A DNA stretch of 64,000 nucleotides, taken from positions 44,206-108,205 of the IMG/VR virus record IMGVR_UViG_3300044972_000601; one strand, 5' to 3'. This document shows positions 47,490 through 63,177 of this stretch, piece by piece (within the stretch, counting starts at the first letter, position 1; the number at the start of each line of letters is the position of its first letter). Position numbers and translations under genes: made by a program. Source of the DNA: a virus. Under the pieces are notes generated by a model. It saw only the letters and a program-made list of their open reading frames with translations, made no database searches and was not told the origin of the DNA.

Positions 47490-48473
47490 TTAAGCGTTAG
47501 CAAGTTGAACATATACTCCAACCGGAGCAACTAGTTTCCAAGGAGCTTGTTGACCAGTAGTATACAAATGTCCCGATCCGCCTGCGACTGTTAATGTTGC
47601 CTTGTGTGCTGTAATCTTAGTAGCAAAGTACTCGCCGCCTGCACTATCAAGAACTGCCACACTACATTCGCCAGCAGCATCAGCTAACGAACCAGTTAAC
47701 TTAACAGTACCAGTTAGTGTACCGTCTGTTACTTTATAACGACGACCAGATACTTGTTTCTTAATGTCAACTGATAGTGCTGATCCGCCTGTTAAGAATG
47801 CTGTCATTAAAATGGCATTTTCTTGATTGGTTGTTGAACCAACGTTGCCAGTGTCAGTGGATAAAACAGCAACTTTAGTAGCATTACCGGTCATTGTGAT
47901 TGATGGTGCTGATACATAACCAGAACCTTTTTCATTAATTGCTACTGCTAATACACCCCACGTAATTGTTACACGTAAGTTGTTACCAGTTCCGCCAGTT
48001 GTAAACATTTGTGTAACAGTACTACCCGGATTGCTTGCTGCGGTAGCTCCGTTGTATGCTAATACTGTGTACGAACCGCCTGCAACTAGTTCAATAGTTG
48101 TAGCTGCGCCGCCGCCGTCTATACTTTTAATTCTAAAACTTGCGCGAGTTGTATATGTGCCGTCAACAGTGCCCGTCCCGCCTGCTGCTGATCCGCTGCC
48201 TAACGTTACAACTTCTTCGTCAAGATAGCTGCCGCCGCCGTTATCAATACTAACTGACTTGACAACCATAGTGATAGCGCCTGCTGTTGCAGTAACACCG
48301 CCTGGTAGTGTAGGTGCTGCAAATGTTGCTGTTGGTACTGCAATGTAATTGTTGTTTGTGCCAGCGATAGTAACGCTAGCAACGCCTTGGCCGCCAATGC
48401 CATTATCGGTTGTTACGCTTGTGGAACCAATGTTTCGGTTACCAAAATATTTTTTATTTAAAGGACGTCCCAT
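47490..48473 (-). CDS. Probable abundant virion protein (capsid-decoration candidate)
   Basis: Follows MCP, own late promoter (48561-48568), strong AAGGAG RBS, G/T/A-rich beta composition. Confidence 0.45.
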   Translation of the reverse strand: MGRPLNKKYFGNRNIGSTSVTTDNGIGGQGVASVTIAGTNNNYIAVPTATFAAPTLPGGVTATAGAITMVVKSVSIDNGGGSYLDEEVVTLGSGSAAGGTGTVDGTYTTRASFRIKSIDGGGAATTIELVAGGSYTVLAYNGATAASNPGSTVTQMFTTGGTGNNLRVTITWGVLAVAINEKGSGYVSAPSITMTGNATKVAVLSTDTGNVGSTTNQENAILMTAFLTGGSALSVDIKKQVSGRRYKVTDGTLTGTVKLTGSLADAAGECSVAVLDSAGGEYFATKITAHKATLTVAGGSGHLYTTGQQAPWKLVAPVGVYVQLANA

Positions 48474-48578
48474 TTTATTTTCTCCTTAAGAAAAGTGGCG
48501 TTTTAGGCCATACGCGGTTGGATTTCCGCATAAAATTCACCCTATGTGAATCATACAAAGTATTTATCACATCGTGAG

Positions 48579-58730: not shown

Positions 58731-58951
58731 TCAGTTCTTCCTCGGACGAAATTCAGGCGGATTTAAACAGACTGGATCAAGAGACTAAACAATTTAAAGA
58801 AGAATTGTTTAGGATTTGTTGGTACATGCGTGGAGGAGTTACAGTAAACGATTTACTGTATCTCTACAGCTACGAAGATAGGGAAGCTATCTACGTTATC
58901 ATAAAAGAAAATATAAAAGCAACCAAAGAAACTCAAATGCCGTTACTGTGA
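58709..58951 (+). CDS. Small gp51-like hub ORF in -1 frame, probably reached by frameshift; absent from ORF track
   Basis: Open frame KFFRQRLISSSSDEIQADLNRLDQETKQFKEELFRICWYMRGGVTVNDLLYLYSYEDREAIYVIIKENIKATKETQMPLL*, no ATG in its first half. Confidence 0.65.
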   Translation, partial: KFFRQRLISSSSDEIQADLNRLDQETKQFKEELFRICWYMRGGVTVNDLLYLYSYEDREAIYVIIKENIKATKETQMPLL

Positions 58952-60208
58952 TTGTATTTTTTTCTGATAGTCTTGACGAGATATCACTGCTTGAGTTTTG
59001 TTATTTTGATAAAATCCAGACTTTGTCTGTGTCCAATCGCCAGGATTAAATTTTTCGTCGGACGGTGTGTTTGCGCTGGGTGAACTGGCTGGAGCAGATG
59101 GAGCAACAGCAGGAGTAGGCGCAACCGCAGGCGGCGTTGATGTGCCTAACGATTTTTTACTTCCTGGCACAGCACTTGGCAATGGTTTGGCTCCAACTTT
59201 TGACAATCCAGTGTTTATATCAACTCCGTATTTTTCAATTAAATCTTCATAGGCCAAAATAAGTGCTTGTTCAAGAGGGCCAACAAGGCCAGCGGCAACA
59301 CCAGCTGTTTTGCCAACTACATAAAATGCATCATCAACTATCAACCATTTAATTGCATCCAGCGGACGTAGAGATTCTTTTTTCCCGTCACTGTTGATGT
59401 CTGCATTCATGATAGGTATATCAGAATTTAAAAAAGCCAAATATCCTGCCAACACAGACTTGGCACCGTAACTGGCAAACTGTCCAAGTGCATTGAGTCC
59501 AGCAGCTACTTTTTTAAAACCAATAAGAGTCAGTGCTCCGTTTCTCAGCAGGTTTAATACTTTAAATACAGCAAGCGCACCGCCCAGTAATAATGTAGGA
59601 GTCTGAAATGCCAATCTGCCAACTGCTATTTTCAAAGTTTCCCTGTGTGCTTCCTCAAAGTTCTCCTGCGTAATTGCCCCTGATTTAAGTCTATCTTCCC
59701 AATAACGCATCACAGGCATGTATCCATTCTTTGGATTATTAAATACTTCATCTACATTTGAAAAAATCTCATAGGCCAATAATGTATTGATAGCAGTTTT
59801 AACACCTGTTAGAAACAAAGATCCGCCTGTGTTACCAGTTTTTGCAGCATCAGCACCAACTTTTGCAGCGGCTGTGGAACGTTCGTGTGCTTTTTTAACA
59901 GCAGTATAGATCATATCCTGAATCCAAGCTTCGCCTTCAGCACCTTCTGATTTTTTAGCAGCCAGTAAACCAGAATCTATATACCGCTCTGCGTCTTTGA
60001 TGTTGGGTGCATGGTCAAGACCTCCGCTCTTCATCTTAGCGGCAATAATATCAGCCAACTCATCGGAAGCTTCTTCAAATGCTCTTTTATCAGCCGCTGA
60101 TATAAATTTACGAGGAACAGCTTTGGCACCACCCTTTAAAAGACCAAGCCATGAAAATGGATTAGCTTCAGTTAGATTGGATTCACAAATAATATCGTAG
60201 ACTTTCAT
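58943..60208 (-). CDS. Probable internal head (ejected) protein with hydrophobic segments
   Basis: Start at ATG 60208 (MKVYDIICESNLTEA, with gp21-type L/I-x-E sites) downstream of TATAAATA 60229-60236. Confidence 0.5.
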   Translation of the reverse strand: MKVYDIICESNLTEANPFSWLGLLKGGAKAVPRKFISAADKRAFEEASDELADIIAAKMKSGGLDHAPNIKDAERYIDSGLLAAKKSEGAEGEAWIQDMIYTAVKKAHERSTAAAKVGADAAKTGNTGGSLFLTGVKTAINTLLAYEIFSNVDEVFNNPKNGYMPVMRYWEDRLKSGAITQENFEEAHRETLKIAVGRLAFQTPTLLLGGALAVFKVLNLLRNGALTLIGFKKVAAGLNALGQFASYGAKSVLAGYLAFLNSDIPIMNADINSDGKKESLRPLDAIKWLIVDDAFYVVGKTAGVAAGLVGPLEQALILAYEDLIEKYGVDINTGLSKVGAKPLPSAVPGSKKSLGTSTPPAVAPTPAVAPSAPASSPSANTPSDEKFNPGDWTQTKSGFYQNNKTQAVISRQDYQKKIQSQ

Positions 60209-60239
60209 AGAGAACTGTTCATATGCTGTATTTATAACT

Positions 60240-60709
60240 ATATCAAGATGAACTACGTTCATCTGTTCTTCGCTATCGCTCGAACTTTTATACTTCGTAG
60301 AATACAATCAGTTACGGAGTAATTTTAATATTATCTAGATTGTGTAGTCACACTTAGCCCTGGCGGGCTAAAAATGAACATTATCTGAGTTGAGCAGTTC
60401 ACTTAGCGTTACAGCATTACAGTGGCGGTTGTCCGGTACCACGAGCTGAGTCTTAATTACAACGGCAGGTCTACACATATACGCTAACATACACATAGCC
60501 GCGGGTATTTCTCCCTCTTTTAGCCTTTTAAAAATACTTTTCTTATAAATCAAACGGGTTATATATAGGCATATCCCATCGTCGTCCTGTAAAGGATAGT
60601 GATTCACAACTCTGCTGCCAAGCAGAAATTCCATTACCTGAGATGCACGTAGACCAGGCAGTAAGGACACTTAACAACGCCAGTGCGGGCTTATTTGGCA
60701 GTAAATTGC
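60240..60709 (-). ncRNA. Candidate structured non-coding RNA / origin-like region
   Basis: Longest gap without a credible gene; multiple hairpins, one forming only on the minus strand via G.U pairs. Confidence 0.45.
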
Positions 60710-61144
60710 CTAGATTTGTTGAGCCTTGAGTATATGCGAGCCATGTACACGAACACTAATCTGCCCGTTATAATAGTCTTTTGATTCTAATACTTTGTGA
60801 TTGAATTGTTCTCTGGCCTCTATATAGGAGCATTCTGATTTACTTTTACAATAAAACAGTATCTCTCTACTGAAGTTTTCCTTGCCTAATTTTAATACAT
60901 CTGCGTGTAGTTCTAGATTTGAGCCATAATATTCTTGCCAGTCGCTGTCGACTTTGCTTCGAATTTTCTTTTTTTTCTTAGTGCCATTTTTTAACTTGAC
61001 TACTTTGTAAGTAGTTTTTGCAAATTTAGCTAGTTTTTTGCCTATGTATTTTCTTCCAGAGATGTTATTTGTTATCAAATACACAAACCCTACACAATCT
61101 TCGGGTAGAGTTTCTAGTAATATATTCTGATAGGTCCATGACAT
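60710..61144 (-). CDS. Stand-alone GIY-YIG-family nuclease (Seg-like catalytic domain)
   Basis: GFVYLITN..SGRKYIGKK, YYGS, F.REIL, E, YYN motifs. Confidence 0.8.
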   Translation of the reverse strand: MSWTYQNILLETLPEDCVGFVYLITNNISGRKYIGKKLAKFAKTTYKVVKLKNGTKKKKKIRSKVDSDWQEYYGSNLELHADVLKLGKENFSREILFYCKSKSECSYIEAREQFNHKVLESKDYYNGQISVRVHGSHILKAQQI

Positions 61145-61147
61145 GCT

Positions 61148-61402
61148 TTAGTTAGCATCATCTTCCTCGTTGCCTGTATGATCCTGATTTGCCTTGCGTT
61201 CTGCCTTGTCGGCGTCGATCCAATGTCGCCAATCTTGTATGTTTGCTCGTCGCTGCCTTGCTATAATTCTAAGTTCGGATAATAGTTGCCTAGTTTCCAA
61301 TCCTGCCTGTCGTGTGCCTTTATCAAGCCAACGTTGATTGGCTTTGTAATATTCTCTAAATACACGCATGAGTTCATCATGCGTTTCTTCATCTCGTTTC
61401 AT
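61148..61402 (-). CDS. Small basic helical protein, Hc1/histone-like
   Basis: KGTRQAG..TR..LSEL....R.RR..IQ pattern; co-transcribed with gp46. Confidence 0.4.
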   Translation of the reverse strand: MKRDEETHDELMRVFREYYKANQRWLDKGTRQAGLETRQLLSELRIIARQRRANIQDWRHWIDADKAERKANQDHTGNEEDDAN

Positions 61403-63177
61403 TCACTTACTTCAACATCATTTGCATAACTTGTGAATCCATTTTCTTTAATAACCTTGAGCACATTGTTTACACGACCGATAAGTTCGTCCTTGTGACT
61501 GATAAGGAAAATATTCTTCTTACGTTCACGGCTCATCTTTTTAAGAACAGCCAACGCACCTTCGACACCACTTGCATCAAGACCGTTATCAACCAACTCG
61601 TCCACAAACAACAAGTTAATCTGCTGATACAAACTTTCCCACACGTCACGGAACGCCCAAGACAATGACAAGATAAGTCTATTGCGTTCTCCACGGCTCA
61701 AGTTATCAAAGTCAAGATCCTGACCAAGCTGTGTAATCAACACAGTTAGGTCGTTCTGGAACAATACACTGTGCGGCAAGCCCATCTTGTCGAGATAGTA
61801 GGTAAGTCTGTTGTTTAGATACGCAAGATTCTGATCAATAATCTTTTTACGGATAAAACTATCCTTGCTTGTTAACAGTTTAAGCAAAAACTCTTGATGT
61901 TCTTTCAAACTAGTAAAAGAATTTACCTTATCCCATGTAATTTCTTGCATGGCTGTGTTGCGTAGTTCGTCAATTTGTTCTTGATACGGATCTGTTTCGC
62001 TTGCTTTAACAGTTAATTGTGTTTCAAGTGTTTTTAAATTATTTTGATGCTTGAGTGCTTGCTCAACTGTATCATAATACGTATCAGGTCTTGTGCTTAC
62101 ATCACCGATGTTTGCGATCTCTTTGGTAATCTTGGCCAGATCTGTTGTAACTTTATCCAAATACTTCTGAGCCTCTGCAAGATGCAGAGTAGCTTCCCCA
62201 GTCATGGACTCGTGTTTGTGGTCGTGAAGCTGTTGTTCACAAGCATGACAAGTTTTGTTTGCTAGACTTTCTAATTCTTTTGTATACTTTGTTAGACTTT
62301 TTTCAGCTTGTGTTAATGCACTTTCTAAAGTTGCACGTTCTTTATTCAAACTTTTTAACTGTGCAGTTTGCTCAATGTACAATTTTAACTGATTATGAGA
62401 TGCAAGTTCAGCTTCAATATCAACATTTTCCAATTCAATGATAGCCCGTGCCATCTTTTCAATGTCCACATCGTGTTGAGTATTCCATGCAGTTTGTCTT
62501 GTAAGCAAACTATCAACACTTAGCTGGATCTTTTCATTGGATTTCTTTGCTGCCTCTATATCAGCATTCTCTTGATAGATGTTATCTTTAGTAGTTTTAA
62601 CAAGTTCTTTAAGCAACTCTGCTTTTTCACTTAGCAACGTAATGCCCAACAACTGTTCAATAATAACACGCTGGTCATTTGCCCGCATGGACAAAAATGG
62701 TTCTGTATAAGTGTTTAGTGCTACAATATGTTTGAACATATCGTGACTCATGCCCAACAAATCGTCAAGGTCCTTTTGCGTTTCACGCATATCGCCTTGT
62801 GCGTCGTCAGTTTCTTCTGTTTCTTGTGCTTGATTGTTGACAAAGAACTGTAGCACATTAGGTTTACGACCACGTTCAATACGATAATCGATTCCGTTCT
62901 TTTCAAAACTCAGTGTAACCAACATTCCTTTATTATTAATCTTGTTAATGAGATTATCTTTTTTAATGTTAGTTAAGGCATTGCCGTAAAGTGCATAGCT
63001 TAATGCATTGACGATAGTAGTTTTGCCTGTGCCATTACGACTTCCGCTGTCATCCCCACCTTGATCCAAGTTTTCTCCAAGGACCAGTGTTAAATGTTCT
63101 TTATCAAAATTTACAGCTTGGGTTTGATTACCCACGCTCATGAAATTACGTACTGTTAAATCTTTAATTGTTATCAT
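61399..63177 (-). CDS. gp46: Recombination ATPase (T4 gp46/Rad50/SbcC)
   Basis: Walker A NGTGKTT, coiled coils with CHAC zinc hook, LSRGE signature, LLFVDE Walker B, ISH. Confidence 0.95.
   Translation of the reverse strand: MITIKDLTVRNFMSVGNQTQAVNFDKEHLTLVLGENLDQGGDDSGSRNGTGKTTIVNALSYALYGNALTNIKKDNLINKINNKGMLVTLSFEKNGIDYRIERGRKPNVLQFFVNNQAQETEETDDAQGDMRETQKDLDDLLGMSHDMFKHIVALNTYTEPFLSMRANDQRVIIEQLLGITLLSEKAELLKELVKTTKDNIYQENADIEAAKKSNEKIQLSVDSLLTRQTAWNTQHDVDIEKMARAIIELENVDIEAELASHNQLKLYIEQTAQLKSLNKERATLESALTQAEKSLTKYTKELESLANKTCHACEQQLHDHKHESMTGEATLHLAEAQKYLDKVTTDLAKITKEIANIGDVSTRPDTYYDTVEQALKHQNNLKTLETQLTVKASETDPYQEQIDELRNTAMQEITWDKVNSFTSLKEHQEFLLKLLTSKDSFIRKKIIDQNLAYLNNRLTYYLDKMGLPHSVLFQNDLTVLITQLGQDLDFDNLSRGERNRLILSLSWAFRDVWESLYQQINLLFVDELVDNGLDASGVEGALAVLKKMSRERKKNIFLISHKDELIGRVNNVLKVIKENGFTSYANDVEVSE

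What the first reader, a model, noticed from the sequence alone, without database searches (positions are those of the whole stretch)
60301..61144. Minimal GIY-YIG nuclease followed directly by a ~400-nt structured non-coding tract
Seen: in an otherwise dense genome, about 400 nt after the GIY-YIG stop lack a credible gene and contain serial stems on the minus strand: GGCA..TGCC at the stop (60697-60710), CTGC-TTG-GCAG (within 60609-60630), UAUGUGUAUG-UUAG-CGUAUAUGUG (about 60474-60497; five G.U pairs, so it folds only as minus-strand RNA) and TTAGCCC-GCCA-GGGCTAA (60354-60371). The 144-aa protein lacks the C-terminal DNA-binding modules of typical Seg/I-TevI homing enzymes but has a Lys-rich insert (KLKNGTKKKKKIRSK). 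Inference: a co-transcribed ncRNA that may partner the nuclease as a ribonucleoprotein (RNA-supplied specificity), or an R-loop origin transcript beside gp46/47. I recognise no tRNA, tmRNA, RNase P or group I core.
Basis: partly seen in the sequence, partly recalled or inferred. Interest (0 to 1): 0.8.

Follow-up and report, generated by a model that had tools for sequence, protein, structure and literature searches.

The report
Full-length Polynucleobacter-1 twin-box phage RNA
The gene-free stretch behind a small nuclease gene of this uncultured freshwater T4-like phage encodes a real, knotted non-coding RNA of about 460 bases. Its first third is an orphan RNA motif catalogued in 2010, and the rest carries one 7-letter word twice for a reader that is still unknown.

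Summary
The tract is real and non-coding. Window 60543-60691 (minus strand) matches Rfam RF01718, the Polynucleobacter-1 RNA, at 69.8 bits against a cut-off of 37. The conserved RNA is about three times longer than that, running from roughly 60711 to 60246.

On a 42-sequence alignment, 104 proposed pairs in 22 helices are 90% paired, against 37-40% in slid controls, and 67 pairs show compensatory changes. The fold includes three covarying pseudoknots.

The 3' half carries a 7-nt word twice: AGAUAAU at 60386-60380 and at 60336-60330. The two copies are identical in 140 of 140 distinct relatives, although at least 13 word variants exist across them.

The other two are replaced by a pseudoknot. 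The 100-aa ORF is broken in all 41 aligned relatives.

The RNA closes the gp47-gp46-GIY-YIG operon and ends before a late promoter, so it is not a leader of the next gene. The GIY-YIG gene is a near-constant upstream neighbour, which Weinberg 2010 already noted as "GOS11034/PSSM2_218". However, extra genes can sit between them, one RNA has no GIY-YIG nearby, and more distant GIY-YIG homologues have no RNA. A nuclease-RNA complex is therefore unproven. I found no partner for the boxes.

This scan has reported the same RNA on other genomes before.

The parts
60246..60711 (-). Full-length structured non-coding RNA, about 460 nt. The 5' limit is set by pseudoknot PK0 (60701) and the conserved AGGC overlapping the stop codon. 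The 3' limit is set by hairpin P19.
   Evidence: Conserved directly behind the GIY-YIG gene in 66 of 84 loci by blastn. On alignment A1, 104 pairs are 90% paired against 37-40% in slid controls, 67 pairs are compensatory, and 0 of 500 shuffles reach this.
60543..60691 (-). 5' domain, matching Rfam RF01718 Polynucleobacter-1 RNA (helices P1-P6)
   Evidence: 69.8 bits against a gathering score of 37, E 3.7e-14, model positions 1-141 of 141. It is the only copy in the 108-kb record.
60615..60701 (-). Pseudoknot PK0. CUGCC (60701-60697, 9 nt after the stop codon) pairs with the P3 loop GGCAG (60619-60615). It lies outside the Rfam model.
   Evidence: All 5 pairs show changes on both sides, for example GCGG/CCGC, GAGG/CCUC and UCACC/GGUGA (helix 2).
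60468..60500 (-). Long hairpin P8+P9 with the conserved 8-nt loop GUUAGCGU.
   Evidence: 12 of 12 pairs compensatory, 92% paired (helix 11). Registers compared.
60403..60487 (-). Pseudoknot P13. Loop UUAGCG (60487-60482) pairs with CGCUAA (60408-60403), just 5' of box module 1.
   Evidence: 97% paired, 6 of 6 pairs compensatory (helix 12).
60412..60466 (-). Knotted core. P10 is GCCGUUG (60466-60460) with CAACCGC (60431-60425). It is crossed by P11 (CAGC 60448-45 with GCUG 60415-12) and P12 (UGG 60441-39 with CCA 60425-23). The near-invariant GGUACCGG lies at 60440-60433.
   Evidence: helices 13-15: 100%, 85% and 95% paired, with compensatory pairs in each. Near-invariant columns (G277-G284; 2 of the 8 positions are conserved only at 90% or more).
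60380..60386 (-). Box 1, AGAUAAU, preceded by the invariant ACUC
   Evidence: identical to box 2 in every distinct relative.
60330..60336 (-). Box 2, AGAUAAU, preceded by GUGUGAC-N4-CAAUCU
   Evidence: 140 of 140 distinct RNAs have two identical boxes. Twelve variants in the viral set and four more in other loci (AGCUGAA, AAAUGAA, AGAUGAG, and the L207 pair).
60354..60371 (-).
   Evidence: 91% paired, compensatory changes such as UUUGCCC/GGGCAAA, UCUCCC/GGGAGA and UUCACCG/CGGUGAA (helix 17).
60246..60322 (-). 3' hairpins. P17 is 60322-60312. P18 is 60285-60265, with an inner GC/GC stem capped by a 4-nt loop (GAUA here; GNRA-type GAAA, GCAA or GUGA in many relatives). P19 is 60264-60246.
   Evidence: helices 18-22, 82-100% paired, compensatory pairs in four of the five. 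P18/P19 are also present in the divergent RNA of L207.
60710..61144 (-). 144-aa stand-alone GIY-YIG (SegE-type) nuclease gene
   Evidence: Pfam PF19835 at 7.3e-32, phrog_447. 39% identical to P-SSM2 PSSM2_218. Catalytic-type residues conserved across the family.
60368..60670 (-). 100-aa ORF inside the RNA: spurious
   Evidence: Interrupted by stops or frameshifts in 41 of 41 aligned relatives. No Pfam or PHROG family.
60229..60236 (-). T4-type late promoter word TATAAATA, between the RNA and the next gene
   Evidence: Read directly from the sequence. The exact word lies 65-106 nt after box 2 in 30 of 149 relatives and never in the first 335 nt of the RNA.
58943..60208 (-). Next gene, 421 aa, no family. 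Its probable start is ATG 60208, not the TTG 60307 or ATG 60262 given by the ORF list.
   Evidence: ATG 60262 lies inside hairpin P19 and is not conserved (AGAAGAAC in relatives). ATG 60208 is in frame and follows the late promoter. This is an inference.
61148..63177 (-). Upstream genes of the same operon: gp46-like Rad50/SMC ATPase (61399-63177) and an 84-aa basic ORF (61148-61402)
   Evidence: AAA_23 and SMC_N matches. A homologue of the 84-aa ORF is found in only 77 of 154 loci.

Best explanation
Identity (shown). The tract is a single-copy gene for a non-coding RNA of about 460 nt. It is the full-length form of the orphan Rfam family Polynucleobacter-1 (RF01718).

The RNA has a 5' domain, which is the Rfam motif plus an uncatalogued pseudoknot to the leader. 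Next comes a knotted core around the near-invariant GGUACCGG. The 3' domain holds two look-alike modules, each ending in the same unpaired 7-nt box, and the RNA ends in two terminal hairpins.

Expression (inferred). The RNA is made by read-through as the last element of the early/middle operon gp47-gp46-ORF84-GIY-YIG. It starts within about 10 nt of the stop codon, ends before the late promoter of the next gene, and is probably a stable RNA.

Action (inferred, weakest step). It most likely works in trans as a folded scaffold that offers two identical single-stranded words to one bivalent reader. On this reading the GIY-YIG gene is a fixed upstream neighbour, not a demonstrated partner.
For: Identity:
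- RF01718 scores 69.8 bits against a cut-off of 37.
- The 3' extension is visible in the 2010 seed alignment.
- It sits behind a homologue of PSSM2_218, as that paper described.

Structure:
- 90% of pair cells are paired against 37-40% in slid controls. 67 pairs are compensatory and 0 of 500 shuffles reach the observed values.
- Three pseudoknots have compensatory pairs.

Non-coding: the ORF is broken in 41 of 41 relatives.

Last element of the operon:
- Same strand, 9-19 nt after the stop, with no promoter-like site between them.
- In five relatives an extra ORF lies between the GIY-YIG gene and the RNA. In L100 the RNA starts 20 nt after that ORF's stop; in the others the ORF ends at the usual distance before module 2.
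- RNA-library contigs bridge the stop codon: X15 covers 60615-60865 with 1 mismatch, and X18 covers 60612-60771.

Not a leader:
- TATAAATA follows the RNA.
- In several relatives the next genes are on the opposite strand.

Twin boxes:
- 140 of 140 distinct RNAs have identical boxes, found without requiring identity.
- Twelve box variants occur in the viral set alone.
- There are at least 5 independent switches at box position 1 on well-supported branches of the GIY tree, and 28 on the best tree.
- The boxes lie outside every covarying helix.
Against: - No transcript ends or strand were measured. The RNA-library evidence is contigs only and could be DNA carry-over.
- No reader was found. There is no covarying complement in the RNA and no covarying third site in five phage genomes, one of them complete.
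- The bivalent-reader idea rests only on the identity of the two boxes.
- The very tight linkage to the GIY-YIG gene could still mean a functional tie. In the gene-first direction 55 of 56 loci have the RNA. In the RNA-first direction 30 of 31 metagenome loci have the gene, as do all viral loci with enough upstream sequence that were checked.
- P14, which would enclose box 1 in a loop, is only 75% paired with no compensatory change.
Confidence: 0.6

Rival explanations
1. Cis-acting 3' UTR element. The knotted RNA stays attached to the operon mRNA. There it protects the mRNA from 3' exonucleases, or it sets translation or decay of the GIY-YIG and upstream genes, for instance as an autoregulatory binding site.
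For: The RNA abuts the stop codon. A terminating ribosome would cover the 5' strand of PK0, so translation and folding are coupled. The RNA always follows the last ORF of the operon, whichever ORF that is. Contigs bridge the ORF and the RNA.
Against: A 460-nt RNA with many invariant single-stranded positions and co-changing boxes is far more than end protection needs. It follows unrelated ORFs equally well. In L307 it sits in another context altogether.
Confidence: 0.15
2. Ribonucleoprotein with the GIY-YIG nuclease. The RNA binds the 144-aa nuclease, which lacks a DNA-binding domain, and aims or restrains it. The twin boxes would act as short recognition words.
For: Linkage is very tight in both directions. 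It persists down to 57% protein identity in L207, and the 2010 paper noted it as well. The nuclease has no DNA-binding module. Catalytic-type residues are conserved.
Against: - Homologues at 36-50% identity, including those common in cyanophages, have no RNA.
- L060 has the gene without the RNA.
- L307 has the RNA without the gene.
- Genes can be inserted between the two.
- The basic insert is not specific to RNA-bearing clades.
- The boxes switch often on the GIY tree, 42 changes against 64 for shuffled labels.
- There is no guide-length variable segment.
Confidence: 0.08
3. 5' leader or riboswitch of the downstream gene, which is the 'cis-regulatory' label the 2010 catalogue gave the motif.
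For: The motif was listed as probably cis-regulatory in 2010. In this window a same-strand gene follows.
Against: A late promoter word lies between the RNA and that gene. The following gene differs between relatives, and in L050, L065, L052, L068, L047 and L083 the next genes are on the opposite strand.
Confidence: 0.03
4. A DNA-level element. The boxes would be direct repeats read on DNA, for example an origin or R-loop site, iterons, or a homing or recombination site.
For: The two words are identical 7-bp direct repeats about 50 bp apart. The element lies next to the recombination genes gp46/gp47 and a GIY-YIG gene.
Against: Dozens of compensatory base-pair changes and conserved G.U pairs show selection on a minus-strand RNA fold around the boxes. 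The flanks of the two boxes stay distinct (ACUC against AUCU), which argues against simple repeat homogenisation.
Confidence: 0.03
5. A protein-coding gene, the 100-aa ORF at 60368-60670.
For: The frame is open in this window and in the near-identical contig L006.
Against: It has stops or frameshifts in 41 of 41 aligned relatives and no family match. The substitutions preserve base pairs instead.
Confidence: 0.01

Closest known systems
Polynucleobacter-1 RNA motif (Rfam RF01718; Weinberg et al. 2010, Genome Biol 11:R31, PMC2864571)
   Same: The 5' 149 nt match the whole model at 69.8 bits. The RNA sits behind a homologue of P-SSM2 PSSM2_218, as that paper states. The setting is freshwater. The function is unknown.
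   Different: The conserved RNA is about three times longer than the model. It adds a leader pseudoknot, a knotted core, two box modules and terminal hairpins. The paper found no copy in any purified phage, whereas here the RNA sits in T4-like phage contigs. The neighbouring gene is now recognisable as a GIY-YIG nuclease.
Large ornate phage-associated RNAs of unknown function, such as GOLLD and ROOL (recalled from the literature, not tested here beyond the Rfam scan)
   Same: Several hundred nucleotides, many pseudoknots, carried by phages or prophages, with no known biochemical role.
   Different: No Rfam match to those families. This RNA is smaller, is not next to tRNA genes, and has the twin-box feature.
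Free-standing Seg-type GIY-YIG homing endonucleases of T4 (Pfam PF19835, SegE_GIY-YIG)
   Same: The catalytic domain matches at 7e-32, and the gene is free-standing in a T4-like genome.
   Different: It has no C-terminal DNA-binding region. The family is widely conserved at fixed positions in cyanophages, where it is mislabelled 'NAD synthetase'. That pattern is unlike a sporadic selfish gene. No homing was tested.
OMEGA systems (TnpB or IscB with omega RNA): an RNA encoded at the 3' end of a nuclease gene
   Same: A structured RNA starts at or near the stop codon of a small nuclease gene.
   Different: The nuclease fold differs (GIY-YIG, not RuvC/HNH). There are no transposon ends and no guide of 12-20 nt, and gene and RNA can occur apart. 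This is a resemblance in layout only.
Type III toxin-antitoxin RNAs (ToxI and relatives), which are repeated pseudoknotted units cut at identical sites
   Same: Short identical words at a fixed spacing in a pseudoknotted phage-related RNA could be identical processing sites.
   Different: The RNA lies downstream of the protein gene, not upstream. Only the 7-nt words repeat, not whole units. No ToxN-like RNase gene was seen, and no processing data exist.

Membership tests
Rfam RF01718 Polynucleobacter-1 RNA | Covariance-model score at or above the curated gathering score of 37 bits | tested here: met
   69.8 bits, E 3.7e-14, full model 1-141. Relatives score 57-118 bits.
Rfam RF01718 Polynucleobacter-1 RNA | The model's helices are kept by compensatory changes | tested here: met
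   P1, P3, P4 and P6 are 84-100% paired with 3-5 compensatory pairs each. P2 is poorly aligned and P5 hardly varies, with no compensatory change.
Rfam RF01718 Polynucleobacter-1 RNA | Lies downstream of a GOS11034 / PSSM2_218-like gene (Weinberg 2010 supplement) | tested here: met
   The upstream gene is 39% identical to PSSM2_218, E 1e-17.
GIY-YIG nuclease superfamily (SegE type, PF19835) | Domain match above the Pfam cut-off, and conserved GIY, YIG, Arg, Glu and Asn positions | tested here: met
   110.6 bits against a cut-off of 25. Y22, Y33, G35, E94 and N126 are invariant and R62 is at least 90% conserved in A2. Nuclease activity itself cannot be tested here.
Homing endonuclease (mobile, with sporadic distribution and a DNA-binding domain) | A DNA-binding region, and presence or absence varying between close relatives | tested here: not met
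   There is no sequence beyond the catalytic domain. The gene holds a fixed position behind gp46, directly or after one or two short ORFs, in most of the 24 viral contigs whose gene order was checked.
RNA-guided nuclease systems (CRISPR, OMEGA) | A variable guide segment complementary to a target, and obligate co-occurrence of RNA and nuclease | tested here: not met
   Only 7-nt boxes vary. No covarying complement was found. The gene occurs without the RNA (L060, Melnitz, cyanophages) and the RNA without the gene (L307).
Cis-regulatory leader or riboswitch | Constant position in the 5' UTR of a conserved downstream gene | tested here: not met
   The downstream gene varies or lies on the opposite strand. 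A late promoter lies after the RNA.
Group I intron, tRNA, tmRNA, RNase P | A match to the family model | tested here: not met
   Scanning 59500-62000 at E up to 10 gave only RF01718 and a chance 13.5-bit hit. ARAGORN found no tRNA or tmRNA.

The most novel reading that the evidence does not exclude
The two identical, fast-switching 7-nt boxes are a programmable recognition word. The RNA would present this word twice to a phage enzyme, most obviously the adjacent GIY-YIG nuclease that lacks a DNA-binding domain. That would make an RNA-specified nuclease or exclusion system used in competition between related phages.
Probability: 0.04. Interest if true: 0.9.

Novelty: new variant of a known kind. 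Interest (0 to 1): 0.5.

Why it matters
Polynucleobacter-1 has been an orphan motif since 2010, listed as possibly cis-regulatory and not found in any isolated phage. This window and about 190 related loci show three things:
- It is the head of a much larger, multiply knotted RNA gene.
- That gene belongs to giant freshwater T4-like phages.
- Its tail holds two words that change between lineages yet always match each other.

A pattern like that implies a specific reader still to be found. It gives a concrete experiment: change one box, or both. The work also corrects the 'NAD synthetase' label carried by hundreds of cyanophage genes that are GIY-YIG nucleases. The function remains unknown, so the value for now is a well-defined target, not a mechanism.

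Tried and rejected
- **Partner for the boxes inside the RNA.** A scan for complements with G.U allowed found only the U-rich 3' end of the Rfam domain. That segment pairs promiscuously and does not compensate for the C variant. Mutual information on A1 gave only the other box, plus signals that track phylogeny.
- **Partner elsewhere in phage genomes.** I compared five records carrying five different boxes, one of them complete at 355 kb. No conserved third site carried the word or its complement. The best candidate, G000:20903, lies in a gp41-like helicase coding sequence and drifts synonymously.
- **Co-evolution of GIY-YIG residues with the boxes.** Only 5 independent pairs sit on supported branches, so the test has no power.
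- **The 84-aa basic ORF as a partner.** A homologue is present in only 77 of 154 loci.
- **Helix P16 (ACAAUC/GAUUGU).** It is 52% paired and was rejected.
- **PKx (AGGC with GCCU of the P6 loop).** It is 72% paired with one compensatory pair of four (a single sequence), so it stays undecided.
- **Promoter and terminator scans.** Nothing above chance on the minus strand.
- **blastn against isolated phages.** No match.
- **Bacterial genomes.** Only short MAG contigs that look like phage DNA were found. The Polynucleobacter copy of the 2010 paper could not be fetched.
- **Metatranscriptome contigs.** They cover the locus but cannot give strand, ends or level.
- **Literature.** Only the 2010 paper names the motif.
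- **Resemblances considered and dropped.** These were the T-box sequence (GUGGUACCG is shared, but its UGG is paired inside the RNA), CsrA sites, box C/D, anticodon-loop mimicry and sigma-70 -10 boxes.
Full report
**Setting.** The window is part of a 108-kb IMG/VR virus record. On the minus strand lie a gp47-like gene (called by its Mre11-type motifs), a gp46-like Rad50/SMC ATPase (AAA_23 and SMC_N) and an 84-aa basic ORF. A 144-aa ORF follows, then about 500 nt without a credible gene, then a 421-aa gene of no known family. A baseplate-hub gene lies on the other strand. The 144-aa protein is a stand-alone SegE-type GIY-YIG domain: PF19835 at 7e-32 covers residues 3-129. Its nearest cultured homologue is in Methylophilales phage Melnitz, at 49% identity.

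**What the gap is.** An Rfam scan places RF01718, the Polynucleobacter-1 RNA, at 60543-60691 on the minus strand. It scores 69.8 bits against a cut-off of 37 and covers the full model. It is the only copy in the record. No tRNA, tmRNA or other family matches.

The only paper in the library that names this motif is Weinberg et al. 2010. Its supplement says the RNAs lie downstream of genes of family GOS11034, "with possible homology to PSSM2_218", and that none was found in a purified phage. I fetched PSSM2_218, which is annotated "NAD synthetase". It is 39% identical to the window's GIY-YIG protein, E 1e-17. The raw 2010 alignment already shows conserved sequence 3' of the model.

**Extent and conservation.**
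- A protein-first search of viral contigs returned 594 relatives and kept the best 80, at 74-100% identity.
- The DNA behind the gene is conserved in 66 of the 84 loci, over the whole gap and not only the Rfam part.
- Of 56 distinct loci with enough downstream DNA, 55 carry the RNA's twin-box tail. Only L060 does not.
- Some loci lack an RF01718-level 5' domain but keep the tail and the terminal hairpins.

**Structure.** I aligned the window (60230-60716, minus strand) with 41 relatives of 68-83% identity (A1). RNAalifold gave 52 nested pairs, 30 of them with compensatory changes. I added long-range pairings seen in the alignment and counted a 104-pair, 22-helix model.

| Measure | Model | Controls |
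|---|---|---|
| Pair cells that are paired | 90.0% | 37-40% when partners are slid by 1-3 columns |
| Pairs changed on both sides | 67 | 28-39 |
| Covariation score | 0.388 | 0.06-0.09 |
| Shuffles reaching the observed values | 0 of 500 | n/a |

Three pseudoknots show compensatory changes:
- PK0 joins CUGCC (60701-60697), only 9 nt after the stop codon, to the P3 loop GGCAG (60619-60615). All 5 pairs are compensatory.
- P13 joins the 8-nt hairpin loop (60487-60482) to 60408-60403. All 6 pairs are compensatory and 97% of cells are paired.
- P11/P12 cross P10 around the near-invariant GGUACCGG (60440-60433).

The RNA therefore runs from about 60711 or 60701 to the end of hairpin P19 at 60246, some 460 nt. 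Folding energy alone is not exceptional (z = -1.08), so the case rests on covariation.

- Stem 4 is P15 and is confirmed.
- Stem 3 is the P8/P9 hairpin, but the conserved register has 7 bp and an 8-nt loop.
- CTGC-TTG-GCAG (61% paired) and the GGCA/TGCC hairpin at the stop (61%) are not conserved. Their 3' arms belong to PK0.

**Not coding.** The homologous frame of the 100-aa ORF at 60368-60670 has stops or frameshifts in all 41 aligned relatives.

**Twin boxes.** Two look-alike modules lie about 50 nt apart, each reading helix, GUG(U)GAC, 4-6 nt, (C)AAYCY, box. In the window both boxes read AGAUAAU (60386-60380 and 60336-60330).

A search that did not require identity found 140 distinct RNAs, and every one has two identical boxes. 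The 33 non-identical hits were random matches elsewhere in the loci. Twelve variants occur in 188 loci. AGCUGAA, AAAUGAA and AGAUGAG occur in other loci. A divergent RNA in L207 has GUUAGAU and GUUAGAG, which is 6 of 7 identical.

On a tree of 120 GIY-YIG proteins the variant changes 42 times, against 64 for shuffled labels. Only 5 independent switches at position 1 sit on well-supported branches, so the true number lies between about 5 and 28 for that position. The flanks of the two boxes stay different (ACUC against AUCU), and the boxes lie in no covarying helix.

**Who reads the boxes?** I found no answer.
- Complement scans within the RNA hit only a U-rich conserved segment that does not compensate.
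- Mutual information found only the other box.
- I compared five phage records with five different boxes, one of them a complete 355-kb genome. I searched for a conserved third site carrying the word or a wobble complement. The only candidate lies in a helicase coding sequence and changes synonymously.

**Relation to neighbouring genes.**
- *RNA-first, viral contigs.* Using a module-2 pattern, all loci with enough upstream DNA had a GIY-YIG gene directly upstream except for a handful. The five such exceptions I checked further still have the gene on the same strand in the same contig. In four of them I measured it 1.1-1.3 kb upstream of module 2, with an extra ORF of 258-358 aa in between. In L100 the Rfam domain starts 20 nt after that ORF's stop.
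- *RNA-first, metagenomes.* Using the invariant core as the pattern, I found 31 true RNAs with upstream DNA. Thirty have the gene. L307 has no GIY-YIG, gp46 or hub homologue in 12.8 kb.
- *Gene without RNA.* More distant homologues in Melnitz, phiM7, Synechococcus phage B3 and P-SSM2 are followed directly by other genes or by a late promoter.
- *Downstream.* The gene after the RNA varies, and in several relatives the next genes are on the opposite strand. In the window, TATAAATA (60236-60229) lies between P19 and the probable start of the next gene at 60208. The same word follows the RNA in 30 of 149 relatives and never occurs in the first 335 nt of the RNA.

The RNA is therefore an autonomous unit that closes the early/middle operon. 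It is not a leader.

**Expression.** No promoter-like or terminator-like site above chance lies between the nuclease gene and the RNA on the minus strand. Six metatranscriptome runs hold parts of the locus. Contigs from two studies span the stop codon into the RNA: X15 covers 60615-60865 with one mismatch, and X18 covers 60612-60771. A third study covers 60227-60511. Contigs cannot show strand, ends or level, and DNA carry-over is possible, so this is weak support for co-transcription.

**Verdict.** The element is a member of a catalogued but unexplained RNA family, seen here at full length. The tight synteny favours some link, but the separable occurrences and the lack of any guide-like segment make a fixed-neighbour reading more likely.

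My best account is a stable, knotted RNA that presents two identical words to a bivalent reader. This mechanism is an inference. Earlier reports of this scan on other genomes reached the same description. I re-derived the structure, the boxes and the neighbour statistics independently here.

Noticed in passing
window 48471-48551 (-): A second catalogued orphan RNA, Rfam RF02980 freshwater-2, matches at 69.7 bits against a cut-off of 49.9.
   Followed up: no
L212:26712-27149 (P-SSM2 PSSM2_218) and hundreds of cyanophage records: Genes annotated 'NAD synthetase' (phrog_447) are homologues of this SegE-type GIY-YIG domain, so the label looks like a propagated misannotation.
   Followed up: partly
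window 60208-60307: The ORF list starts the next gene at TTG 60307. ATG 60262 lies inside RNA hairpin P19 and is not conserved. The likely start is ATG 60208, just after the late-promoter word TATAAATA at 60236-60229.
   Followed up: partly
L100:7891-8826 (-); also L103, L109, L128, L159: In some relatives an extra gene sits exactly between the GIY-YIG stop and the RNA. In L100 it is methyltransferase-like (PF08003). In the others it is 258-358 aa with no family.
   Followed up: partly
L207:3409-3800: A MAG contig labelled Legionellales carries a GIY-YIG gene (57% identity) followed by a divergent RNA. There is no RF01718 hit, the P18/P19-type hairpins are the same, and the boxes GUUAGAU and GUUAGAG differ by one letter. 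This is the only mismatched pair seen.
   Followed up: partly
L307:9500-10100: This is the one twin-box RNA (box AAAUGAA) found away from any GIY-YIG, gp46 or hub gene. It lies behind a 135-aa ORF of no family and an AAA ATPase gene.
   Followed up: partly
window 60433-60440 (-): GGUACCGG is near-invariant in all 42 aligned RNAs (6 of 8 positions fully invariant) and contains the palindrome GGUACC, which could let two RNA molecules pair. This was not tested.
   Followed up: no
Weinberg 2010 alignment, NC_009379.1 2130672-2131206: The bacterial Polynucleobacter copy shows the same two-module layout with the box AGCGAAA. A similar word, AGCGAAG, sits at P18 in the window (60274-60268).
   Followed up: no
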